34,652 bases of DNA, taken from the IMG/VR virus record IMGVR_UViG_3300028589_000007; one strand, 5' to 3'. The DNA is from a virus. The translations under genes were made by a program, and so were the position numbers. Shown one piece after another: positions 18,421-27,760 of this stretch. Every line of letters starts with the position of its first letter. The stretch's first letter is position 1. The notes under the pieces are model-generated. The model did not search any database and was not told where the DNA came from. It saw only the letters and a list, made by a program, of their open reading frames with translations.

Positions 18421-18667
18421 GCGGAAGGTCCACCACAGTCATCCGATCAGCTTTGGCAAGGAGGGCCAAGGCGTTGCGGACAGCGCGCCAATCGCTCGGC
18501 GTTTTGCTGGTGTGGATGATCGGCCGCTCAGGCTTGGTAAAGCGCAGGTGGCCGCCGTTGGTGTAGACGACTGACCAGCCGTTGCCCTGGGCGTATTGGA
18601 GCAGCGGTAGCAGGCGTTTAAAGCGACCGCATCGGCGGCCGCTTTGGACTATCAGTGGGCGGCTCAT
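18395..18667 (-). CDS. Hypothetical protein with HicA/YcfA-like sequence pattern
   Basis: The ATG at 18667 forms an ATGA overlap with the upstream stop. NGWSVVYTNGGHLRFTKPERPIIHTSKTPSDWRAVRNALALLAKA resembles the HicA GSxHxxF...P.H...L core. This is a weak, by-eye assignment. Confidence 0.4.
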   Translation of the reverse strand: MSRPLIVQSGRRCGRFKRLLPLLQYAQGNGWSVVYTNGGHLRFTKPERPIIHTSKTPSDWRAVRNALALLAKADRMTVVDLPHGVAIYHG

Positions 18668-19290
18668 GGCGCATTTCTCGCGCCGCAGTTTGGGCAATCC
18701 TCGAAGCGTTGGCGCTCGCTGAGGAAGCGACCGCAGCCGTCGCAGTTCAGCAGGTTGCTGAAGCTGCGATAGCGTGGGCGATTAAGCTTGGGGAGCTTGA
18801 GGCCGACCGAGCGTAGTGCCTGCTTGTGATTGAGCAGCGCGGCCCGGACCACCGGCCGGGAACGCTCGATGATGTATCCGCATGGCCACAGCTCGAAGCC
18901 TTGGGCCAGGTACCCAGTGGCATCTGCTGCCCCGGGGTGGATGGCGTCATCCAGGTTGGCGGTGGAGCCTGTACCGCCGAGCCATACCAAGTCGTTGCCG
19001 TCCCACTCGCGTGCGTAGGCCACATATACCCTGCCGTCTTCGTTGCGGTAGGCGTCGGCTTCTGACCTGGTGAGGTACTGGCAGTCGACGCCGATCTCTG
19101 CCAGGGCGAAGACGTATTCCACTGGCCAAGGTAGATCGGTGTCGCGGCACTCGTACTGCTTTACCGCTGACTCGCAGTTGAATTGCTCGGCCTCGTCGAG
19201 GTTCGAGGTGTAGCCGCCGCCGTTGCGCCAGAACATGGCTCGCGTCCCAACATTGCTACGGCTGTCTTGTACAAAGAAAAGGTCAGACAT
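18664..19290 (-). CDS. Hypothetical protein with internal duplication and a C-terminal zinc ribbon
   Basis: 208 aa. There are two similar segments (FWRNGGGYTSNLDEAEQF and VWLGGTGSTANLDDAIHP). The C-terminus reads CDGCGRF...CPNCG. The start overlaps the methyltransferase stop. Confidence 0.55.
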   Translation of the reverse strand: MSDLFFVQDSRSNVGTRAMFWRNGGGYTSNLDEAEQFNCESAVKQYECRDTDLPWPVEYVFALAEIGVDCQYLTRSEADAYRNEDGRVYVAYAREWDGNDLVWLGGTGSTANLDDAIHPGAADATGYLAQGFELWPCGYIIERSRPVVRAALLNHKQALRSVGLKLPKLNRPRYRSFSNLLNCDGCGRFLSERQRFEDCPNCGARNAP

Positions 19291-20968
19291 CAGTTAGCTC
19301 CTGTTGCGCCACGCTTAGTCCCACAGCAATGGGCTGCACCCAGATCGGCATGCTGTTGAGCATGAAGGTTTCGCCGGCGGCGGCAAGCAGTAGGGTGGTG
19401 CCCATAACATGGGCGATTGCTTCGGCAGCTGCAGGCGGCACGGCGTTGCCGATTCGCTCGCGCCAGGCCTGATCGCTCAGGCCGTCCAGCTCGAACTGTT
19501 CCTCTGGGTCTACCAGACTTTGCAGTGCGGCGAGCTCCAGCGTGGTGAACGGGCGGTGCCAGGTGCCGTCGAGGCTTTCGATCACGCAGGTCAACCTGTC
19601 GTTGGCTTCCGGCATGCGTGGATCAGCGACCGACCACCGACCGTTGTCCTGCTTGGCGCTGGCCGAAACTGCACCGCACTGGCTATTCCAGTCGACAACG
19701 CCGTAGTGCCCACCAGTCAGGTAGGCGTCACCTTTGACGCGCTTCATACCTGGGCGCGGATCAGCGATTGATAGCTGCCCACCTTGAACGCCCTTGCCGC
19801 CGGCGATCACGGTTGAGCTGTGGCGCTCGTACCTCATGACCGCAAGGTTGTTGCTGTGTCGTTTCCAGTTGGGCCGTGGATCAGCAACGCTGAACGTCCC
19901 TTGCCCGGGCGACTTGACGCCGATCACTGCGCCGCTCGTTTCGTCCCACCGCCGCACGCCATACTGCTGGTATTGCAGTGCGCCTGTCCTTGCCCTTGGG
20001 TCCGCTACTGAAAATGCACCATTGGTTGGGCTGCTGCGCCCGGCCACAGTGCCGGAGGTGTCGCTCCAGTCGTGCACGCCCAGATAGCCGGCCCGGTATT
20101 CCGGCACGATTACCAAGTCACGCAGATAGCCATCCTCGATCGCCAGGTCATTCAGGCTGCGCCAATCCTTCCCGGCTTCGACCAGGGCGAGGCGAACCCA
20201 CGTTTTCCACTGCAGCGCTGGTACCCGGTGCATCGGGCCAGCGGATTCGATATCGCCGGCGAGCGGCATGCGGCCAAGGATTGAGCCGACCGACTTGAGC
20301 GTCTTCTTTTCCGGCTCGTACAGGAACGGTGGCACCTTCTCAATATGACGGGCCACTAGAAGGAAGCGCTTGCGGCTTTGGGCCAGGCCACCGATGACGC
20401 CGCAGTCGTGAGTGGTTTCGGCGACGGCATAGCCGAAGTGGCTCAACAGCTTGTTGATCTGGTCCAGCAGGTGGCGACCGCGAGTGGCCAAGCGTGGCAC
20501 GTTCTCGAAAACTAGCAGTGGGACCGGATCGTCTTTCCAGGCTTCGCCGAATAGCCAGATGCAGCGCAACGTCAGCTCATTGAGGGCCTGGTACTTCGGT
20601 GTTTGGCTCATTGTTTCGGACAGCAAGCCCGACGCGCCTTTGCAGGGACTGGAAATGAACACGGCGTCAGGACGCTGGTAGTTCGCAGCGCGGCGGATGT
20701 CATCCACGGTGGCTTCGGTCCATCCTGCTGGAGGCTCTTTGCCGTGAAAGCGGATGTACTGATCCCGGGTGAACAGGTCCAACAGCGTACCTTTCACGCC
20801 ACTCAACCGCTCGAAGTCGGCCAGCCCGGCCGGGTCGATGTCGACGCCGCCGATGCACTCCCACTCTCCCTGGACATTGCCAACGATGGGCTTGGCACGA
20901 TTGAAACCTTTGGCACCGCCGCCGAGGCCGCAGCAAAAATGAAAGTGCTTGAGGATACGCTTAAGCAT
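19283..20968 (-). CDS. DNA (cytosine-5) methyltransferase, orphan, with a tandem-repeat variable region
   Basis: From the ATG at 20968 the motifs are FCCGLGGGAKGF (motif I), SSPCKGASG (motif IV, PC), LLVFENV (motif VI), QSRKRFLLVA (motif VIII) and IGNAVPP (motif X). Four repeats ending S(V/I)ADPR lie between VIII and X. No nuclease gene is adjacent. Confidence 0.85.
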   Translation of the reverse strand: MLKRILKHFHFCCGLGGGAKGFNRAKPIVGNVQGEWECIGGVDIDPAGLADFERLSGVKGTLLDLFTRDQYIRFHGKEPPAGWTEATVDDIRRAANYQRPDAVFISSPCKGASGLLSETMSQTPKYQALNELTLRCIWLFGEAWKDDPVPLLVFENVPRLATRGRHLLDQINKLLSHFGYAVAETTHDCGVIGGLAQSRKRFLLVARHIEKVPPFLYEPEKKTLKSVGSILGRMPLAGDIESAGPMHRVPALQWKTWVRLALVEAGKDWRSLNDLAIEDGYLRDLVIVPEYRAGYLGVHDWSDTSGTVAGRSSPTNGAFSVADPRARTGALQYQQYGVRRWDETSGAVIGVKSPGQGTFSVADPRPNWKRHSNNLAVMRYERHSSTVIAGGKGVQGGQLSIADPRPGMKRVKGDAYLTGGHYGVVDWNSQCGAVSASAKQDNGRWSVADPRMPEANDRLTCVIESLDGTWHRPFTTLELAALQSLVDPEEQFELDGLSDQAWRERIGNAVPPAAAEAIAHVMGTTLLLAAAGETFMLNSMPIWVQPIAVGLSVAQQELTDV

Positions 20969-21200
20969 AACGACGTCCCCTTGCTTGCTTCGCCGCAGCT
21001 TTGTCCGCCAGGAGCGCAGCCCATTCGGTGGACTTGCGCTGTTGGCGCTGACGGCTGCATTTTTCATGTTTGCGCGTCGAACGTGCTTTCCCGCAGATAT
21101 CGCAGATGCTGGGCAGGTCCAGACGGTGGCTAGCCATCGTCGGCCGGGTGCGTTCGGTGGTAGCCTTCTCGGCGCTGACTTCTTGGGGGTTCACTTGCAT
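20961..21200 (-). CDS. Hypothetical basic 79-aa protein, translationally coupled to the methyltransferase
   Basis: Preceded by the conserved hairpin plus RBS module. Its stop (20961..20963) overlaps the methyltransferase start region (ATG at 20968) by 8 nt. It contains CDIC and is rich in Lys/Arg. Confidence 0.55.
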   Translation of the reverse strand: MQVNPQEVSAEKATTERTRPTMASHRLDLPSICDICGKARSTRKHEKCSRQRQQRKSTEWAALLADKAAAKQARGRRYA

Positions 21201-21259
21201 GGTGCTTCTCCTTGGGGTTGGTCGGTCTCGGAGGGTTGCCGCCCTCCGGGGCCATCTTT
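21198..21259 (-). promoter_or_regulatory. Start-associated module copy 4: hairpin CGGAGGG-CGGCAA-CCCTCCG plus AAGGAGAAGCACCATGCA
   Basis: The hairpin is at 21229..21248. The conserved RBS/start block ends at the ATG at 21200. The module fills the whole gap after the stop of 21260..22222. Confidence 0.7.
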
Positions 21260-22222
21260 TTATGCCGCCACGTAACCGGCGGCGGTCTTGCTCAGAAGGC
21301 CGGCTTCGGCGGCCTTCTGCATCAGCCTGGTAGCTCTGTCGCTGCCTATCCGTAGAACCTTGGCGACCTGACGTACTGCCACCTTCGTTCCTCTTTCCGT
21401 GCTTGCTATGAGCTGCAGCAAATCGGACGGCAGCCCGTCGCTTGCTGCTTTTGCCTGCTCCGTTTCTCGATGTTCCTGTTGTTGTTCCTCGGCCTGTTCC
21501 TGTTCCGCTGCTACCGGTACTGGGGCGCGTTCCTGCGCGGGTGTTGGACGCAGGGCGGAAAGAATCAGGGCCGGCACAATCTCCAGTGCGGCGGCGAAGC
21601 CGAGGCAGAGCAGGGTGGCCAGTTCAAGCGGCAGACCCGCGGCTTTGGCTGGCAAGGCCAGCAGGGCAGTGAGCTCCTGCGATGCCTGGTCCCGACGCAC
21701 CTGGGCGCGCTCCCGTTCGGCATCGATGCGTGCCATGGAGGCTGTCTCCAGCTCCAGGGCACGGGTGACCATGCCTCGCTCGCGCAGTGCGTTGGCCTGC
21801 TGGTGGACGGCGGCCTCATCGCTGTCGAGCTGCCCGATGCGGGCGGCGTCTGCGTCGCGCTGCCCCACCAGGTCGATCTGGCGTTGTTCCTGGCGGGCTT
21901 GGTGCTCGGCGCGGCTGGTGATGATCGAGGACATGAGCCGGTCGTAAGTGGCCCAGCCGGAAACGGCGCCCAAGGCCAGCGCGCAGGCCATCATCAGCAG
22001 CGCGCACAGGGTTCGGCGCACGACCAGCAGACCGAGGGCCAGTGGCCAGGCGACGTATTTGAACAGGTCCAGGACCACGGCGGCCGAGGCGAATAGGACG
22101 GCGAGCAAGGTGTTGTCGATCAGCGCGGCGATGGCCAGAGCCACCGACGTGGCGGTCACGCCTGCCAGTGCGGCGACCATGGCCAGCAATGGCCAGCGGT
22201 GGTGATGCTGTAAGTGGTGCAT
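21260..22222 (-). CDS. Polytopic membrane / coiled-coil protein with a C-terminal winged-helix-like domain
   Basis: 320 aa with about four N-terminal TM helices and a ~100-aa charged helical region. This is followed by another TM (LELATLLCLGFAAALEIVPALILSAL), an acidic linker, and VAVRQVAKVLRIGSDRATRLMQKAAEAGLL (HTH-like). It is preceded by the conserved module. Confidence 0.6.
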   Translation of the reverse strand: MHHLQHHHRWPLLAMVAALAGVTATSVALAIAALIDNTLLAVLFASAAVVLDLFKYVAWPLALGLLVVRRTLCALLMMACALALGAVSGWATYDRLMSSIITSRAEHQARQEQRQIDLVGQRDADAARIGQLDSDEAAVHQQANALRERGMVTRALELETASMARIDAERERAQVRRDQASQELTALLALPAKAAGLPLELATLLCLGFAAALEIVPALILSALRPTPAQERAPVPVAAEQEQAEEQQQEHRETEQAKAASDGLPSDLLQLIASTERGTKVAVRQVAKVLRIGSDRATRLMQKAAEAGLLSKTAAGYVAA

Positions 22223-22280
22223 GGTGCTTCTCCTTGGAGGCTGGCCCTGTCGAGTTGCCGCTCGGCGGGGCCTTCTTGTT
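22220..22280 (-). promoter_or_regulatory. Start-associated module copy 3: interrupted hairpin GGCCC..CGAG-CGGCAA-CTCG..GGGCC plus AAGGAGAAGCACCATGCA
   Basis: The hairpin is at 22243..22272, with loop TTGCCG on the plus strand at 22255..22260. The module fills the gap between the stop of 22281..22625 and the ATG at 22222. Confidence 0.65.
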
Positions 22281-22625
22281 TCAGGCCCAGGCGCGTTTCA
22301 GGTGCGACCAGATTTCGTCGCCGTTCTCAACGTACTGATGCACTTCCTGCTCCGGCCGGCGGTCCAGGCGCAGCACCGCCAGGCAGTCGTCCCAAAGGGT
22401 GCTGTCGAGACCGCGCAACTCGGTGAGGGCGAAGGGGAAGGCGCTGCCGTTGTAGAGGCTCAGTAGGAAACGACCGACGATGCGGCTCTGTCCAGTGCAG
22501 CGCTGGGCGACTGGCAGCAGTCGGTGTAAGGCTTCAACGCCGGCCGCGCGGATGTATGGACGCTCTGCTTCTTCCACCGCTATGCGGTTGAGGTCGGCAC
22601 GGATTCTGTCTTGTGCGGTTTGCAT
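22281..22625 (-). CDS. Hypothetical 114-aa protein
   Basis: ORF preceded by the conserved module. RFLLSLYNGSAFPFALTELRGLDSTLWDDCLAVLRLD looks like a conserved unknown-function domain. I cannot name the family with confidence. Confidence 0.55.
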   Translation of the reverse strand: MQTAQDRIRADLNRIAVEEAERPYIRAAGVEALHRLLPVAQRCTGQSRIVGRFLLSLYNGSAFPFALTELRGLDSTLWDDCLAVLRLDRRPEQEVHQYVENGDEIWSHLKRAWA

Positions 22626-22678
22626 GGTGCTTCTCCTTGGGTTGGTTGCCCGGACGTTGCCGCGTCCGGGCGGTGGGG
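22623..22678 (-). promoter_or_regulatory. Start-associated module copy 2: hairpin CCCGGACG-CGGCAA-CGTCCGGG plus AAGGAGAAGCACCATGCA
   Basis: The hairpin is at 22649..22670. The module fills the gap between the stop of the 46-aa ORF and the ATG at 22625. Confidence 0.7.
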
Positions 22679-22819
22679 TTAGTGCAGGGCCACGGCCAGC
22701 AGGGACGGGGCGTAGTAGCCGGCCAGCGCGAGGGCCAGCAGGGTCACGCCGCTAGTGACCAGGGTGACCAACGTGTCGCCGCGGCTGTTCTGGTAGAAGT
22801 TGTCGTTGTCGTTTTGCAT
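22679..22819 (-). CDS. Small hydrophobic peptide (46 aa, single TM)
   Basis: Not in the ORF track because it is shorter than 60 aa. Hand translation gives MQNDNDNFYQNSRGDTLVTLVTSGVTLLALALAGYYAPSLLAVALH. It is preceded by the same conserved hairpin and RBS as three larger genes. Confidence 0.5.
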   Translation of the reverse strand: MQNDNDNFYQNSRGDTLVTLVTSGVTLLALALAGYYAPSLLAVALH

Positions 22820-22865
22820 GGTGCTTCTCCTTGGGGTTGATGCCGGCGTTGCCGCGCCGGCGGGG
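22817..22865 (-). promoter_or_regulatory. Start-associated module copy 1: hairpin GCCGGCG-CGGCAA-CGCCGGC plus AAGGAGAAGCACCATGCA
   Basis: The hairpin is at 22842..22861. The module begins 4 nt after the primase-helicase stop (22866..22868) and ends at the ATG at 22819. Confidence 0.7.
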
Positions 22866-25589
22866 TTACACGAGCTGGAACAACCAGCAGCGAACCGTCC
22901 TTGCCGCGCCGTGGGTGTCGACGGCGAGGGCTGAGTTGATCGGTTTGTTGGTTTCCAGGAATTTGGGCGACTTGCTGGTCTTGAGCACGCGCTTGAGCTC
23001 GCTGAGGTTCGGCAGCTGCTGGCGCTTGTTGGCCGCCGTCTCGACGAACTCGTTGAGATTGATGGCGAAGAAGGCCGACTTGCGGGAGTGGTTCAGTTTG
23101 CCGCCGGTGTCGCCCAGGGGACCGTTGAGGAACTCGACCATGTCCCAGAACTCGCGCACGAGTGGGTGGTCGGCGTTGATGGCCTCCTGACGTTCCTGGG
23201 CCATGCGTTCCACCTCGGCATGCACCAGGGCGGCGCGCTCGTCGCTCAGCGGTACGACCAACTGCAGGGCGTCCACCAGGCTGCGCAGTTGGGCGTGGTT
23301 CTTGGCGATACGCACAGTGCGAATGCCCGGGAGCGCCAGGAGCTGCTGCTCGTAACCGGAGGTACGCTCGTCCAGCAGGCTGAGGACCTTTGCCTCGGGC
23401 TGCAGCGCCTTGATCATGAAACCGCTGAGCTGTTCCACCGGCATGCGCTCCAGCTGCTCGGCGAACAGCTTGGTTTCCGGTGTCTGGTGTTCGCGGGTCA
23501 GGTGCACATGGCCCAGGCGCTGGAGGATCGGCTCTGAGGCATTGACCGCGTTGTTCTGAGCGATCAGCAGGGCGGCTCGGAATGGCGGTTCGCGGGTGTC
23601 GTTGCCGTTGTTCTTCACGCCGGTGGAGCGCACGCTACGGCCGTTGTAGGCGGTCTTGAGCTCGTCCCAGTCGAAGTGCTTCACCGGTGCGCCTTCCTTC
23701 TGCTCGCGCTCGGACTCGATCAGCACGACGGGCAGGTTGCCGACCTGGGCGAAGTTCCGCGCCCGGCTGGCCGGGGTGGCCTTGGACGGGTCGAAGCCTT
23801 CATATTCAACGCGTCCTGTGGTTTTCCAGAGCAGTTCCACCAGAGTGGTCTTGCCGGCGCCGGCCTCGCCGATCAGCTCCAGAAACAGATAGGACTTATG
23901 CATCTGGCGGATTTGCTCCGCGTACAGGGCGCCCAGCCACCAGGCCAGCACCACAACGCCGCGCACGCCGAAACACTTCCAGAACAGTTCAAACCAGCCT
24001 TCGTTGTAGGCGCTGAGGTCTGGGTTGATGTGCAGTACCGGGGACTGGCTCTGCGACTTCACGCTCAGCTTGCCGACGTCGAAGAAGTCCTCTTCGTTGA
24101 GCTTGTGCACCTTGCCGCCGGCGATGGCCAGTTCGTTAAACACGTAGACGCCGTGTTCACGGGTGTAGCCGATCCAGTCGATGGTGTTGACGGTCTTGAG
24201 GTCGTCGAGCTGGAAGCCGAGCATGCGTTCCAACTGCTGCGGAGTGCCGGTGAACATCGCACCGTTGCACTCGTTGAGCAGGCGCTTTTTAAACTCCGGT
24301 GCGGCAGTTATCTGCGAGGCGGTGAAGGTTGTCTTGACGGCACGGCTGTCTGGTCGATCTACGCGGAAGTAGTACCAGGCCTCCTGGGTCACGTCGTTGC
24401 GCATGTAGTACAGCGCTTGGAAAGCGCAGTTGGCGATGCGAACCACGGACGAACTCTGGCGCAGAGCCTTGTCCCGACGCTGCTTGTCGCTGAGCAACTG
24501 ATCTTCCTGGCGATCAGAGCTTTCGAGCTCGCGGGCGGCGCGCTCGTACTTCTCCAGGTCAAGGTTGAACCAGTACAGGCGGGAGCGATAGGTGAAGTTG
24601 AATTCCTTGCGCTCGTCCCACTCGTACATGAGCAAGCCCTTTTCCTCTGCCGAGTCGGCCAGGAGTAGGGCGCCCTGGTGACGGGCCTCGTCAAGGTCCA
24701 GCTCGATGCGCTTAGCGCGTTCGTCGTCGCCCTCAATGAAGGCCCAGCGCTGATGCAGGTCATTCCAGTCGATCTTTTTGGCGCCGCGCTGCGGGATGAC
24801 AGCGGCGTCGCACTTGAAGCCCAGCGCGCGGGCCTCTTTGGCCCAGCGGCGCATGTTGGCTTTGGCCACCGGCTCGTTATCAAGTGCCCAGACCAGGCGC
24901 GGCAGGCGCTTGTCTGCCTCCTGGCAGGCCTTCTTGAGGGCGCGGAGCGACTCCTCGGGGAAAGGGGCGCTGCTCATCATGGAGACGGCAGGTATGTCGT
25001 TGTGCAGCAGAGCGATGGCGTCGAAGATGCCTTCAACGATGTACAGCTCGTCGACATCCATTGGTGTGAGTGAAGGAGGGCACCACCAGACGCCCTTGTA
25101 GCTCTCGCCCGGTTTGAAGCGGGCCTTCTGCTTGCCGAAGCGCTCGGGGCGATCGATCAGACGCTCCCAGTAGCCTCCCTTCTCCAGGGGAAAACGAATG
25201 GTCGCGCTGCCGGCACCGATTTCGCGGCTCCAGTAGTTCTCCTGCGTGAACCAGCCGGCTATAAGTTCGACGCGAAAGCCCCTGGCCATTTCCAAGTAGG
25301 CGCGGGCGGTAGCCGTAGGGTTGTCTGCGGTTGACGGCGCCTGTTCGCTCCAGTCGTTGAACAGGTCGCTGTAGAGGTCCTTGACGTGAACGCGATGATT
25401 GCAGGCTTCCGGCCGGCCACAAATCAGCATCCAAGGCGAGTCATGGAATGTGTAGAGGGTGTTTTTACCGCACTTGTGCGCCGGGCATCTGCCCTTGCGC
25501 ATGTAGTTGGTGTTGCTCATGTGTTTGAGGCCGAAGTCGGACTCAATCCGGCGCAGCACCTCTACCCGTAGTTTCTCGTGCATCGTCAT
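22866..25589 (-). CDS. Replication protein: zinc-finger / TOPRIM primase fused to a P-loop helicase (P4-alpha / D5-like)
   Basis: 907 aa. The N-terminal Cys/His cluster is CPAHKCGK...CGRPEACNH. LYIVEGIFDAIAL is a TOPRIM-like acidic motif. Walker A is LIGEAGAGKTT, and the Walker B-like motif is PVVLIESE. Confidence 0.75.
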   Translation of the reverse strand: MTMHEKLRVEVLRRIESDFGLKHMSNTNYMRKGRCPAHKCGKNTLYTFHDSPWMLICGRPEACNHRVHVKDLYSDLFNDWSEQAPSTADNPTATARAYLEMARGFRVELIAGWFTQENYWSREIGAGSATIRFPLEKGGYWERLIDRPERFGKQKARFKPGESYKGVWWCPPSLTPMDVDELYIVEGIFDAIALLHNDIPAVSMMSSAPFPEESLRALKKACQEADKRLPRLVWALDNEPVAKANMRRWAKEARALGFKCDAAVIPQRGAKKIDWNDLHQRWAFIEGDDERAKRIELDLDEARHQGALLLADSAEEKGLLMYEWDERKEFNFTYRSRLYWFNLDLEKYERAARELESSDRQEDQLLSDKQRRDKALRQSSSVVRIANCAFQALYYMRNDVTQEAWYYFRVDRPDSRAVKTTFTASQITAAPEFKKRLLNECNGAMFTGTPQQLERMLGFQLDDLKTVNTIDWIGYTREHGVYVFNELAIAGGKVHKLNEEDFFDVGKLSVKSQSQSPVLHINPDLSAYNEGWFELFWKCFGVRGVVVLAWWLGALYAEQIRQMHKSYLFLELIGEAGAGKTTLVELLWKTTGRVEYEGFDPSKATPASRARNFAQVGNLPVVLIESEREQKEGAPVKHFDWDELKTAYNGRSVRSTGVKNNGNDTREPPFRAALLIAQNNAVNASEPILQRLGHVHLTREHQTPETKLFAEQLERMPVEQLSGFMIKALQPEAKVLSLLDERTSGYEQQLLALPGIRTVRIAKNHAQLRSLVDALQLVVPLSDERAALVHAEVERMAQERQEAINADHPLVREFWDMVEFLNGPLGDTGGKLNHSRKSAFFAINLNEFVETAANKRQQLPNLSELKRVLKTSKSPKFLETNKPINSALAVDTHGAARTVRCWLFQLV

Positions 25590-27136: not shown

Positions 27137-27346
27137 CTACTGTGCGACCGTGCCTTCCTTGATGCCGAGCAGTACGGCTGCGCGGTGTGCTTCTCCGCGC
27201 TTGCCCTTCTTCCGACCGTTGAGCAAGTCGCTGACCAAATTTCTGTTCAATTCATGCTGCCGGCAGAAGTCGGCGATGGACCTGCCCTCGCGGTCAAGCG
27301 TGGCGCGGGCTTGCTCGGGGGTTAATGGGCCGTGCATAGTGTTCAT
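27137..27346 (-). CDS. Ner/Nlp-like HTH early regulator (Cro/Cox position)
   Basis: 69 aa. RSIADFCRQHELNRNLVSDLLNGRKKGKRGEAHRAAVLLGIK parallels the Mu Ner pattern LSRQFGY..TTLANALERHWPKGEQIIANAL. It is the first gene of the leftward early operon and divergent from the repressor. Confidence 0.6.
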   Translation of the reverse strand: MNTMHGPLTPEQARATLDREGRSIADFCRQHELNRNLVSDLLNGRKKGKRGEAHRAAVLLGIKEGTVAQ

Positions 27347-27421
27347 CCGTGTTTAATCGTGTTCGACGACAAGGATTCTTGGGCAGAAAACTGTTCAAGT
27401 CAACTGGTATTGATCAAAAAA
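27347..27421. promoter_or_regulatory. Divergent early/immunity promoter-operator region
   Basis: 75-bp AT-richer gap between divergent HTH genes. It holds a direct repeat CGTGTT-N4-CGTGTT (27356..27371) and the palindrome TTGATCAA (27409..27416) just before the repressor ATG. No promoter hexamers are confidently assignable. Confidence 0.45.
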
Positions 27422-27760
27422 ATGCTCATCGCAGCTGGAGCAGGTGAACGCCTGCGAGAAGAACGGGAGAAAACTGGCCAAAGTCAGACTGATTTTGGCA
27501 AGGCCGCAGGCGTAAGCCGGGGCACCCAGAAAGCCTATGAGCTGGAGACGAGCTCGCCCGACATTCGTTACCTCTGCGCCGTGCAGGAGATGGGTGTGGA
27601 TGTGCACTACGTCCTTACAGGCTCCCGAGTTTCCACCGATCCGGGCGCTCTTTCCGAACGTGAGACCGCAATGCTGGGCTTCTTCCGTCAACTTCCTGAT
27701 GGCGAGCAGGCCAACCTGGTCCGTACGGCATCAGCGTTGGCCGCGACCCTTGATCACTAA
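27422..27760 (+). CDS. XRE-family HTH repressor (immunity repressor candidate)
   Basis: The ATG at 27422 gives 112 aa. The N-terminal HTH is GERLREEREKTGQSQTDFGKAAGVSRGTQKAYELE, followed by a C-terminal extension. The gene is divergent from the early operon. Confidence 0.7.
   Translation: MLIAAGAGERLREEREKTGQSQTDFGKAAGVSRGTQKAYELETSSPDIRYLCAVQEMGVDVHYVLTGSRVSTDPGALSERETAMLGFFRQLPDGEQANLVRTASALAATLDH

What the first reader, a model, noticed from the sequence alone, without database searches (positions are those of the whole stretch)
21198..22865. Four copies of a hairpin (invariant CGGCAA loop, covarying stems) plus an identical RBS/start block framing an accessory early-gene array
Four consecutive minus-strand genes are each preceded by the same module, and the module fills the entire intergenic gap. 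The genes are the 46-aa TM peptide, the 114-aa ORF, the 320-aa membrane/wHTH protein, and the 79-aa ORF coupled to the methyltransferase.

In mRNA sense the four copies read:
- E1: TAA-CCCC-GCCGGCG-CGGCAA-CGCCGGC-ATCAACCCC-AAGGAGAAGCACC-ATGCA
- E2: TAA-CCCCACCG-CCCGGACG-CGGCAA-CGTCCGGG-CAACCAACCC-AAGGAGAAGCACC-ATGCA
- E3: TGA-AACAAGAA-GGCCCCGCCGAG-CGGCAA-CTCGACAGGGCC-AGCCTCC-AAGGAGAAGCACC-ATGCA
- E4: TAA-AAAGATGGCCC-CGGAGGG-CGGCAA-CCCTCCG-AGACCGACCAACCCC-AAGGAGAAGCACC-ATGCA

The 6-nt loop and the 18-nt RBS-to-start block are identical in all four. The stems differ in sequence but still pair, so this looks like selection for structure rather than recent duplication. No U-tract follows any hairpin, so they are not intrinsic terminators. 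I found no copy upstream of any other gene in the window.

The closest described analogue I know is the start-associated sequence (SAS) with extended inverted repeats (ESAS) in Cluster K mycobacteriophages. boxB/nut-type hairpins are another precedent.

Possible roles:
- A binding site for a phage or host RNA-binding protein that co-regulates translation of these cassettes.
- An RNA processing or stability element.
- A conserved linker that allows cassette shuffling by recombination.

The genes so marked are all accessory unknowns plus an anti-restriction-type methylase. The array could therefore be a co-regulated counter-defence or host-takeover module.
Basis: seen in the sequence. Interest (0 to 1): 0.72.

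Follow-up and report, generated by a model that had tools for sequence, protein, structure and literature searches.

The report
Shared gene-start modules and antisense RNA
Four accessory genes of a phiCTX-like Pseudomonas prophage each begin with the same hairpin-plus-ribosome-site module, and the last module appears to encode a small antisense RNA of about 90 nt that can pair with all four, so the phage could control the set together and swap genes at these modules.

Summary
Four exact copies of AAGGAGAAGCACCATGCA lie on the minus strand, each preceded by a hairpin with a CGGCAA loop. There are no other copies in the window.

The module is not a host repeat. It occurs 2-5 times per genome in phiCTX-like (Peduoviridae) prophages of Pseudomonas and close relatives, always downstream of the primase gene. 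Across 96 distinct hairpins the stems covary strongly and the loop stays C-(G/T)-GCAA. Homology between phages breaks exactly at module edges, and more than 20 unrelated ORFs sit between modules, so the modules are cassette-exchange points.

The last module, plus the first 15 codons of its gene, has the anatomy of a small antisense RNA gene on the opposite strand: an extended -10 motif (TGnTAGCCT), a 5' hairpin that displays the anti-start codon, and a GC-rich terminator with a U-tail. There is one per prophage, and it is structured only on the antisense strand (z about -5).

This RNA would be 20-26 nt complementary to every module. Its terminator loop (UUGCCG) is complementary to every mRNA hairpin loop.

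The transcript itself is inferred, not shown.

The parts
22842..22861 (-). Module E1 hairpin: GCCGGCG-CGGCAA-CGCCGGC, 4 nt after the primase stop codon
22815..22832 (-). Module E1 RBS/start block AAGGAGAAGCACCATGCA (ATG at 22819-22817) of the 46-aa membrane peptide gene (22679-22819). It shares a 26-nt identical run with E4.
22648..22671 (-). Module E2 hairpin: CCCGGACG-CGGCAA-CGTCCGGG, closed by one further G-C pair (9 bp)
22621..22638 (-). Module E2 RBS/start block of the 114-aa DUF7673 gene (22281-22625). It shares a 22-nt identical run with E4.
22243..22272 (-). Module E3 hairpin (12 pairs, with two C.A mismatches on the mRNA strand). On the + strand it is terminator-like, with tail TTCTTGTTTC.
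22218..22235 (-). Module E3 RBS/start block of the 320-aa membrane/wHTH gene (21260-22222). It shares a 20-nt identical run with E4.
21224..21253 (-). Module E4 hairpin. On the + strand it is the predicted terminator of the antisense RNA (13 pairs, tail ATCTTTTTAT).
21196..21213 (-). Module E4 RBS/start block of the 79-aa ORF (20961-21200), whose stop overlaps the start of the C5 methyltransferase gene (19283-20968)
21156..21200 (-). Fifteen-codon leader (MQVNPQEVSAEKATT), conserved at nucleotide level and fused to at least 8 unrelated protein bodies in other phages
21158..21166 (+). TGGTAGCCT: extended -10 promoter-like motif (TGnTAnnnT) on the antisense strand
   Evidence: present at this fixed position in 83 modules, exactly one per locus, against a background of 2.4e-4 per nt. 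Wobble positions are invariant and the 'n' position is free.
21173..21263 (+). Predicted antisense RNA of about 90 nt: a 5' hairpin with apical loop UUGCAU (anti-AUGCAA), the anti-SD sequence, a terminator hairpin with loop UUGCCG, and a U-tail. The start position is inferred from the -10 motif, give or take 2 nt.
22866..25589 (-). Primase/helicase gene (Toprim + P-loop, 907 aa). In every related phage the array begins at its stop codon.

Best explanation
The four modules are portable translation-initiation cassettes. Each has a hairpin with a fixed loop, a C/A-rich spacer, and a standard SD-AUG block. They tie the accessory genes downstream of the primase to one small antisense RNA.

That RNA is encoded by the last module itself, on the + strand at about 21173-21263. 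It would start from an extended -10 promoter that lies inside the first 15 codons of the 79-aa ORF. It runs back over the start codon and SD and ends at the E4 hairpin, which on that strand is a Rho-independent terminator.

The RNA is fully complementary to the E4 initiation region. It is 20-26 nt complementary to E1-E3, because they carry the same block. Its terminator loop (UUGCCG) is complementary to the CGGCAA loop of every mRNA hairpin, which offers a loop-loop 'kissing' contact. Its 5' hairpin loop (UUGCAU) is complementary to AUGCAA at every start.

Pairing would block ribosome binding. At E4 it would also block the translationally coupled methyltransferase. The whole set would therefore be repressed or thresholded together.

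Because the modules are conserved, they also act as homologous-recombination points where ORFs are swapped. Any ORF that lands between two modules inherits the same control.

Shown here: the sequence anatomy, its conservation, strand-specific structure, covariation, complementarity and the recombination breakpoints.

Inferred: that the antisense RNA is transcribed, that it pairs in vivo, and that the outcome is repression.
For: 1. Promoter-like motif. TGnTAnnnT (mostly TGGTAGCCT) sits on the antisense strand at ORF positions +35 to +43 in 83 modules, exactly one per locus. Only 1 of 125 non-leader modules has it, and the background is 2.4e-4 per nt. The wobble positions +36, +39 and +42 are near-invariant, while the second-codon position +41 (the 'n') takes C, A, T or G. 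That is the reverse of a coding constraint. phiCTX has TGCTAGCCT. L134 and L214 keep TGTTAGCCT even though their leader is 2 codons shorter.

2. Terminator. Hairpins of these modules have longer stems (12.8 vs 9.0 pairs) and T-richer antisense tails (5.8 vs 3.3 T in 10 nt; p about 1e-16). E4 and E3 are the two best terminator-like sites on the + strand in 10 kb.

3. Strand-specific structure.
- Window 21173-21264 on the + strand folds at -46.4 kcal/mol, z = -5.5, with 0 of 200 shuffles as good. The mRNA strand folds at -19.1 kcal/mol, z = -0.8.
- The antisense strand is the more stable in 67 of 67 distinct sequences. The 5' hairpin alone is more stable in 47 of 47 (-18.6 vs -4.6 kcal/mol).
- Eight diverse phages, including phiCTX, give the same two-hairpin fold with z from -4.9 to -5.9.
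- On 38 sequences, 97.6% of cells pair, against 42-51% for slid controls, and 12 pairs change on both sides.
- Variation of leader codon 3 (GTG, GTA, GCA, GCG) keeps pairing only on the antisense strand.
- Leader hairpins carry 36 antisense-type wobbles and 0 sense-type.

4. Copy number. Covariance model R1 gives one full-length hit (97 bits) in the window and three partial hits at the other modules. Across related loci it gives 81 full-length hits (at least 78 bits) in 81 different loci, followed by a gap down to 59 bits or less. The + strand at E1-E3 is not significantly structured: z = +1.1, -1.2 and -1.6.

5. Boundaries. The island conserved between otherwise different phages is window 21157-21261. 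That runs from the -10 motif to the U-tail, which is exactly a minimal small-RNA gene.

6. Targets. E1, E2 and E3 share perfect runs of 26, 22 and 20 nt with E4. Their duplex energies are outliers: -92 to -103 kcal/mol, against a background median of -64 and a best of -83.

7. Concerted evolution, as a single shared partner predicts.
- Loop type was uniform in 63 of 63 multi-module viral loci and in all multi-module genomic loci of the first two scans.
- L079/L117 (G) and L037/L078 (T) have homologous modules at three positions that all differ at loop position 2, while their primases are about 90% identical.
- The two block variants (AAGGAGAAGCACC and AAGGAGAGACACC) are never mixed in 104 multi-module loci.
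- Both loop types occur in hosts of the P. fluorescens group, so the partner is not host-clade specific.

8. Recombination. Homology breaks at 22620, 22279-22285, 21261 and 21157. More than 20 unrelated protein families follow modules.
Against: - No transcript data: the antisense RNA is predicted from sequence only.
- The -10 hexamer TAGCCT is weak (3 of 6 matches, plus the TG extension), and there is no conserved -35 (none in the window by inspection).
- For hairpins of the non-leader modules, sense-type G.U and antisense-type A.C wobbles are balanced (12 vs 11). Nothing shows that these hairpins act in the mRNA.
- Loop uniformity is not absolute. L274 and L287 carry one CTGCAA loop among CGGCAA loops. 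L274 has AGGCAA in its leader hairpin. L291 has one CGGCGA loop.
- With 20-26 nt of complementarity in the block, a kissing contact may not be needed, so the loop constraint could have another cause.
- The G/T loop split may rest on few independent evolutionary events.
- Model R1 was built from the same family it then counted.
Confidence: 0.55

Rival explanations
1. The antisense RNA exists but acts only in cis, on the leader gene and the methyltransferase coupled to it. Modules E1-E3 are copies of the same initiation cassette that spread by recombination and are kept as good translation starts and cassette borders. Their loops are conserved for some other reason.
For: The antisense-gene anatomy is present only at E4. 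The non-leader hairpins show no strand bias in wobble pairs. A few mixed-loop arrays persist.
Against: This leaves three things unexplained: the near-invariant loop over covarying stems in the non-leader modules, the concerted G/T switch at three homologous modules, and the fact that block variants are never mixed within a genome. With 20-26 nt of perfect complementarity, trans pairing would be hard to avoid.
Confidence: 0.2
2. The hairpin loop is the operator for a sequence-specific RNA-binding protein, phage- or host-encoded, that controls translation or stability of each cistron.
For: The loop is invariant over covarying stems. Loop type is lineage-specific. The 79-aa ORF has a C2HC knuckle and a basic tail and is widespread in the family.
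Against: No flanking protein family tracks loop type: primase, the 77-aa family and the Ogr-like protein reach 96-98% identity between G- and T-type phages. Many phages have the modules but a different protein in place of the zinc-knuckle ORF. Both loop types occur in related hosts. The identical RBS block and the nucleotide-level leader need a separate explanation. There is no Rfam match and no boxA.
Confidence: 0.1
3. The modules are only recombination linkers plus a strong standard ribosome-binding site, a PeSL-like plasticity device. There is no dedicated trans-acting regulator.
For: Breakpoints lie exactly at module edges. L099 carries a hairpin-duplication scar. Cassette content is very diverse.
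Against: Recombination needs sequence identity, not base-pairing, and the stems are the least conserved part yet covary. Gene conversion cannot homogenise a 6-nt loop while leaving the adjacent stems different. This reading also fails to explain the strand-specific structure and the promoter- and terminator-like features at the leader module.
Confidence: 0.1
4. The hairpins act at the DNA level, as cruciforms or single-stranded DNA structures. They might be sites for the adjacent primase/helicase or the methyltransferase (the loop contains GCKGC).
For: Wobble types are balanced in the non-leader hairpins. The array lies next to the primase and methyltransferase genes.
Against: The elements are strictly oriented with the genes, sit in every intergenic gap, and are joined to an SD-ATG block. 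The leader hairpins show a 36:0 bias for one RNA strand. No such hairpins occur elsewhere in the phage.
Confidence: 0.03

Closest known systems
P22 sar RNA / ant (cis-encoded antisense RNA of a temperate phage; from my own knowledge)
   Same: A small RNA is transcribed from a promoter inside the 5' end of the target gene. It runs back across the target's ribosome-binding site and ends in the upstream intercistronic region, repressing translation of an accessory or regulatory gene.
   Different: Here the target sequence is repeated in front of 2-5 genes, so one RNA could act in trans on a set of genes. The targets also carry a hairpin whose loop matches the RNA's terminator loop. No transcript has been shown yet.
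CopA/CopT of plasmid R1 and related ctRNAs (from my own knowledge; Rfam ctRNA_pGA1 gave sub-threshold hits only)
   Same: An antisense RNA of about 90 nt with two stem-loops. A GC-rich hairpin with a 6-nt recognition loop kisses the complementary loop of the target. Control is exerted through a short leader ORF to which the downstream gene is translationally coupled, as with the 79-aa ORF and the methyltransferase here.
   Different: The setting is a phage early operon, not replication control. There are multiple targets. The Rfam score of 22 bits is far below the gathering score of 45, so this is not a member of that family.
PeSLs of T4-type phages (PMC2839356, PMC4122927)
   Same: Short conserved regulatory cassettes containing a stem-loop flank non-essential ORFs in plastic regions and mediate modular shuffling by recombination between copies.
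   Different: A PeSL is a sigma-70 early promoter plus a terminator stem-loop, both on the gene strand. Here the cassette is a hairpin plus an SD-ATG block inside one operon. No gene-strand promoter is present, and the hairpins are not terminators on that strand.
SAS/ESAS of Cluster K mycobacteriophages (PMC3203893)
   Same: A conserved asymmetric motif that includes the SD lies a few nt before the ATG of many non-structural genes from different families. About half have an upstream inverted repeat, and the repeat consensus differs between subclusters. Its function is unknown.
   Different: The sequence is unrelated (GGGATAGGAGCCC). Pope et al. report that ESAS repeats do not show compensatory pairing, and they favour a DNA-binding protein. 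Here the pairing covaries strongly, and an antisense-RNA gene is attached.
Lambda-type nut sites (boxA + boxB with N protein; from my own knowledge)
   Same: A hairpin with a phage-specific loop and a variable stem in early transcripts.
   Different: There is no boxA and no N-like protein was identified. There is one site per intergenic gap rather than one per operon, each fused to an RBS block. Nothing links the sites to termination.

Membership tests
Cis-encoded antisense RNA regulator (sar / CopA type) | Promoter on the opposite strand within or near the 5' end of the target gene | tested here: inconclusive
   The extended -10 motif TGnTAnnnT sits at a fixed position, one per phage, with wobble bases invariant and the 'n' position free. 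There is no conserved -35, and promoter activity was not measured.
Cis-encoded antisense RNA regulator (sar / CopA type) | Defined 3' end: an intrinsic terminator on the antisense strand | tested here: met
   A 13-pair GC-rich hairpin with a T-rich tail. The wobble pairs are compatible with the antisense strand only, 36:0.
Cis-encoded antisense RNA regulator (sar / CopA type) | Stable, conserved secondary structure specific to the antisense strand, with exposed recognition loops | tested here: met
   z = -5.5 on the antisense strand against -0.8 on the sense strand. Antisense more stable in 67 of 67 sequences. Eight diverse phages give z from -4.9 to -5.9. 97.6% of cells paired, with 12 compensatory pairs.
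Cis-encoded antisense RNA regulator (sar / CopA type) | Complementarity to the target's translation initiation region | tested here: met
   Full complementarity at E4 by construction. Perfect runs of 26, 22 and 20 nt at E1-E3, which cover the SD and AUG.
Cis-encoded antisense RNA regulator (sar / CopA type) | The RNA is made, and it changes target expression | not testable with these tools
   This needs Northern blots, dRNA-seq and reporter assays.
Intrinsic terminator on the mRNA strand | GC-rich hairpin followed by a U-tract | tested here: not met
   All four hairpins are followed by C/A-rich spacers on the minus strand. No minus-strand terminator-like site was called at any module.
Host REP-like / dispersed extragenic repeat | Many copies scattered through chromosomes, independent of any prophage | tested here: not met
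   In one genome per species, true modules were found in 35 of 120 hit loci. All were from Pseudomonas or close relatives, and at least 25 of the 35 have a primase homologue within 8 kb. The other hits are single chance matches without the hairpin.
PeSL (T4-type promoter-early stem-loop) | Strong sigma-70 promoter joined to a terminator stem-loop on the gene strand | tested here: not met
   No promoter-like site was found at any module on the minus strand, and the hairpins lack U-tracts on that strand. Definition taken from PMC2839356.
PeSL (T4-type promoter-early stem-loop) | Recombination between copies swaps, inserts or deletes the ORFs in between | tested here: met
   Breakpoints fall at module edges in L023, L072, L090, L099, L067 and others. 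More than 20 ORF families occur between modules.
SAS/ESAS (Cluster K mycobacteriophages) | The 13-bp motif GGGATAGGAGCCC lies 3-7 bp before the start codon, and ESAS is a 17-bp inverted repeat without compensatory pairing | tested here: not met
   The motif here is different, and the hairpins here covary. Definition taken from PMC3203893.
Lambda-type nut site | boxA plus boxB downstream of an early promoter, read by an N-type protein | not tested
   No boxA search was run and no N-like protein was looked for beyond Pfam and PHROGs scans of neighbouring ORFs. Having one site per gene argues against this reading.
Integron attC | R''/L''...L'/R' cores (RYYYAAC ... GTTRRRY) in a 57-141 bp imperfect palindrome at the 3' end of each cassette | tested here: not met
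   By inspection of the four modules: the hairpins have 4-13 bp stems with a fixed 6-nt loop, and there is no GTTRRRY core.
Any Rfam 15 family | Score at or above the family's gathering threshold | tested here: not met
   The best hits were ctRNA_pGA1 at 22 bits (gathering score 45) on the + strand at E3 and E4.

The most novel reading that the evidence does not exclude
One phage-encoded antisense RNA defines a plug-and-play regulon. Every ORF that recombines into the array between two modules acquires the same ribosome-binding site, the same kissing hairpin, and therefore the same antisense control. The antisense gene itself is overprinted on the first 15 codons of whichever ORF follows it, so unrelated proteins all begin MQVNQ...ATT. 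Loop and block variants would then act as 'specificity alleles' that keep arrays from different phage lineages regulatorily separate.
Probability: 0.4. Interest if true: 0.85.

Novelty: new variant of a known kind. Interest (0 to 1): 0.75.

Why it matters
phiCTX was sequenced in 1999, and it carries two of these modules together with the predicted antisense gene. I found no description of either in Rfam or in the paper library.

If the model holds, it matters in four ways:
1. It gives a concrete, testable mechanism for a class of 'start-associated' repeats whose function has stayed open since they were described in mycobacteriophages.
2. It shows how a temperate phage can keep a fast-changing set of accessory, possibly toxic or anti-defence, genes under a single post-transcriptional switch while shuffling them freely.
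3. It provides a natural example of standardised, insulated expression cassettes with a matched antisense controller, which may be useful for engineering in Pseudomonas.
4. It flags a hotspot with more than 20 unknown gene families for functional screening.

Tried and rejected
1. GenBank phages, megablast with the array: no match. Relatives were found only through the primase protein.
2. Exact-motif literature search and searches on phiCTX with 'stem-loop' or 'antisense': nothing relevant.
3. G.U versus A.C counting on all hairpins pooled: confounded by the C/A-rich flanks. It became informative only after splitting leader from non-leader modules and counting internal mismatches.
4. Search for a phage protein that tracks loop type. 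After GC3-based gene calling, no family separated cleanly. The apparent signal for the 77-aa and 117-aa genes disappeared: their maximum cross-type identities are 96% and 89%.
5. RNAalifold on the MAFFT alignment of the antisense 5' part recovered only the inner 4 pairs, because of register shifts. A hand-written structure taken from the individual folds was used instead.
6. Ideas considered and dropped after inspecting the sequence:
- A sigma-54 promoter: no conserved -12 element.
- An RsmA/CsrA site: the loop lacks GGA.
- A Crc/Hfq AAnAAnAA motif before E3: better explained as the U-tail of the antisense-strand terminator.
- An integron attC site: no core sites.
- An antisense promoter at E3: no convincing -10.
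7. Ralstonia RSY1 and a Halomonas phage, which have related primases, carry no modules and give no hit with the model.


Full report
**1. The observation**

The 18-nt string AAGGAGAAGCACCATGCA occurs four times in the window, all on the minus strand, at 22815-22832, 22621-22638, 22218-22235 and 21196-21213. A search allowing 3 mismatches finds nothing else, and shuffles give none.

Each copy is preceded by a hairpin with the loop CGGCAA. Each module fills the 46-59 nt gap between an upstream stop codon and the next ATG.

The stop of the 79-aa ORF overlaps the start of a C5 cytosine methyltransferase gene.

The array lies in the distal part of a minus-strand early operon. That operon runs from a promoter-like site at 27403-27375 through Cox-like, CII-like and Ogr-like genes, two small ORFs and a 907-aa Toprim/P-loop primase. 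It then continues into the array and on towards the integrase.

**2. Distribution**

The nearest annotated phages are phiCTX, Dobby and BR319a (Citexvirus, Peduoviridae), with about 51% primase identity.

Sixty-two of them have 2-5 copies. In these, almost every copy is preceded by a hairpin with loop CGGCAA or CTGCAA.

phiCTX and Dobby have two modules each, with a lineage-specific block, AAAGGAGAGACACCATGCAA, that is identical in both copies. Ralstonia and Halomonas phages with related primases have none.

In one genome per bacterial species, true modules were found only in Pseudomonas, Stutzerimonas, Phytopseudomonas and Metapseudomonas. They lie next to a primase homologue wherever the fetched stretch reaches far enough. 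The element is therefore specific to one phage family, not a host REP-like repeat.

**3. The hairpin is under selection for pairing**

I aligned 96 distinct hairpins anchored on the loop. All 11 pairs show changes on both sides. The covariation score is 0.517, against at most 0.11 when partners are slid, and 0 of 500 shuffles reach it.

Loop positions 1, 4, 5 and 6 are invariant in that set. Position 2 is G or T. The closing pair is G-C in 94 hairpins and A-U in 2.

**4. The modules are cassette borders**

BLASTN of the window against related loci shows homology ending or starting at 22620 (just after the ATGCA of E2), at 22279-22285 (start of E3), at 21261 (start of E4) and at 21157. For example, L023 is 94.7% identical to the window up to 22620, then has a different ORF, and resumes at 22279.

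At least 20 unrelated ORF families follow modules in different phages. L099 carries a duplicated hairpin inside the end of its primase gene, which is a recombination scar.

**5. The 'family' after the last module is not a family**

At least eight unrelated proteins share only the first 15 residues, MQVNQPQGGTAEATT or MQVNPQEVSAEKATT. They include the zinc-knuckle ORF of the window, an Arc-like protein, an FtsK-gamma protein and several with no known family.

Information content in these 15 codons is equal at codon positions 1, 2 and 3 (1.28, 1.27 and 1.21 bits). The conservation is therefore at nucleotide level.

**6. An antisense RNA gene**

On the opposite strand, the near-invariant RAG-GCT-ACC-AC of the leader reads TGnTAGCCT, an extended -10 motif.

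- It occurs at this fixed position in 83 modules, exactly one per locus. Only 1 of 125 other modules has it. The background is 2.4e-4 per nt.
- The wobble bases that correspond to -7, -11 and -14 are near-invariant, while the second-codon base that corresponds to 'n' varies freely.
- The hairpins of these modules have longer stems and T-rich tails on the antisense strand (p about 1e-16). E4 and E3 are the two best terminator-like sites on the + strand in 10 kb.

An RNA starting 7 nt after the motif (21173) and ending in the tail (21263) folds at -46.4 kcal/mol with z = -5.5. The mRNA strand of the same region gives z = -0.8.

The fold has two parts. The first is a 5' hairpin whose apical loop UUGCAU is the complement of AUGCAA. 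The second is the terminator hairpin. The same architecture appears in eight diverse phages, including phiCTX, with z from -4.9 to -5.9.

Further support for the antisense strand:
- It is the more stable strand in 67 of 67 distinct sequences.
- On 38 aligned sequences, 97.6% of cells pair, against 42-51% for slid controls, and 12 pairs are compensatory.
- Many of the pairs are G.U, which would be C.A mismatches in the mRNA.
- Leader hairpins show 36 antisense-type wobbles and no sense-type wobble.

The covariance model gives one full-length hit in the window (97 bits, 21173-21263, + strand) and partial hits at E3, E2 and E1 (50, 33 and 24 bits). Across related loci there are 81 full-length hits in 81 different loci, followed by a gap. 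The + strand at E1-E3 is not significantly structured.

The segment conserved between otherwise unrelated arrays is 21157-21261. That runs from the promoter motif to the terminator tail.

**7. What this explains**

The predicted RNA is complementary to the E4 initiation region. Because the block is shared, it is also complementary over 26, 22 and 20 nt to E1, E2 and E3, which are clear outliers among all SD-bearing starts in the window.

Its terminator loop, UUGCCG, is complementary to every mRNA hairpin loop. In T-type phages the corresponding pair is UUGCAG and CUGCAA.

A single shared partner predicts concerted evolution, and that is what is seen:
- Loop type was uniform in 63 of 63 multi-module viral loci and in the genomic loci.
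- L079/L117 and L037/L078 differ at loop position 2 in all three homologous modules, although their primases are about 90% identical.
- The two block variants are never mixed in 104 multi-module loci.

Gene conversion cannot easily account for this, because the stems next to the loop differ between copies within one genome.

No flanking protein family tracks loop type, and both types occur in related hosts.

**8. Limits**

- Nothing here shows that the RNA is made. The -10 is weak, and there is no conserved -35.
- For the non-leader hairpins, sense-type and antisense-type wobbles are balanced (12 vs 11). Their strand of action is unresolved, and the kissing step is an inference.
- Loop uniformity has exceptions in one P. 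aeruginosa lineage: L274, L287 and L291.
- The covariance model was built from the family it then counted.

I put 0.55 on the full model, in which the antisense RNA acts on all modules. I put about 0.2 more on a version where it acts only in cis.

**9. Comparison with known systems**

The system would work like P22 sar or plasmid CopA/CopT: a small antisense RNA across a ribosome-binding site, with loop-loop recognition and control through a coupled leader ORF. These comparisons are from my own knowledge. Rfam gives only sub-threshold ctRNA hits.

Its role in genome plasticity matches the PeSLs of T4-type phages. However, it lacks their gene-strand promoter and terminator.

It resembles SAS/ESAS of Cluster K mycobacteriophages in placement. 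The motif is unrelated, though, and ESAS repeats were reported not to show compensatory pairing.

It is not an intrinsic terminator on the gene strand, not an attC site, and not a host repeat.

**10. Verdict**

The most likely trans-acting partner is an antisense RNA encoded by the last module, rather than a protein.

This is a new variant of known kinds of system and, as far as I could find, undescribed. It is directly testable with a Northern blot and a few reporter fusions.

Noticed in passing
window 22206-22282 (+): Module E3 scores 50 bits with the antisense-RNA model. The terminator hairpin and T-tail are intact, but the 5' hairpin is largely deleted and the fold is not significant (z = -1.6). 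It may be a decayed second antisense gene. This type of module precedes the 320-aa membrane/wHTH cassette in every phage that carries that cassette.
   Followed up: partly
L073 (cassette family c4) versus window 22866-25589: One cassette family (273-280 aa) is a free-standing paralogue of primase residues 533-793, the P-loop region: 33% identity, E = 1e-37.
   Followed up: partly
L099, 3' end of the primase gene: A G-type hairpin is duplicated inside the end of a primase that is 93-96% identical to those of T-type phages, and a G-type array follows. This looks like a recombination scar at the hairpin.
   Followed up: partly
window 20961-21200 (-): The 79-aa ORF has a C2HC knuckle (CDIC-x8-HEKC) and a basic tail, both conserved in phiCTX orf40. 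Its stop overlaps the methyltransferase start (ATGCTTAA), so control of this ORF would pass on to the methyltransferase.
   Followed up: no
L274, L287, L291 (P. aeruginosa phiCTX lineage): Rare loop variants exist. L274 and L287 have one CTGCAA loop among CGGCAA loops. L274 has AGGCAA in its leader hairpin. L291 has one CGGCGA loop. Mixed arrays can therefore persist for at least a short time.
   Followed up: partly
All T-type loci, e.g. L037, L078: In T-type phages both loops of the predicted antisense RNA read UUGCA(U/G). Equivalently, the mRNA hairpin loop CUGCAA resembles the start region AUGCAA. I have no explanation for this resemblance.
   Followed up: no
L134, L214: The leader is two codons shorter, yet the antisense -10 motif (TGTTAGCCT) is retained and shifted by 6 nt. 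Modules 3 and 4 in these phages carry the block variant AAGGAGAAACACC, whereas modules 1 and 2 have the standard block.
   Followed up: partly
window 27375-27403 (-): A sigma-70-like site (TTGACT, 17 nt, AAGAAT) lies just upstream of the Cox-like gene and facing the divergent XRE-type repressor gene (27332-27760, +). It is the likely early promoter that feeds the array.
   Followed up: no
window 18664-19290 and 19283-20968 (-): The methyltransferase gene overlaps by 8 nt a 208-aa ORF (PHROG 2457, with a zinc-ribbon-like C-terminus). In some relatives that lack the methyltransferase, this ORF is still present in the region downstream of the last module.
   Followed up: no
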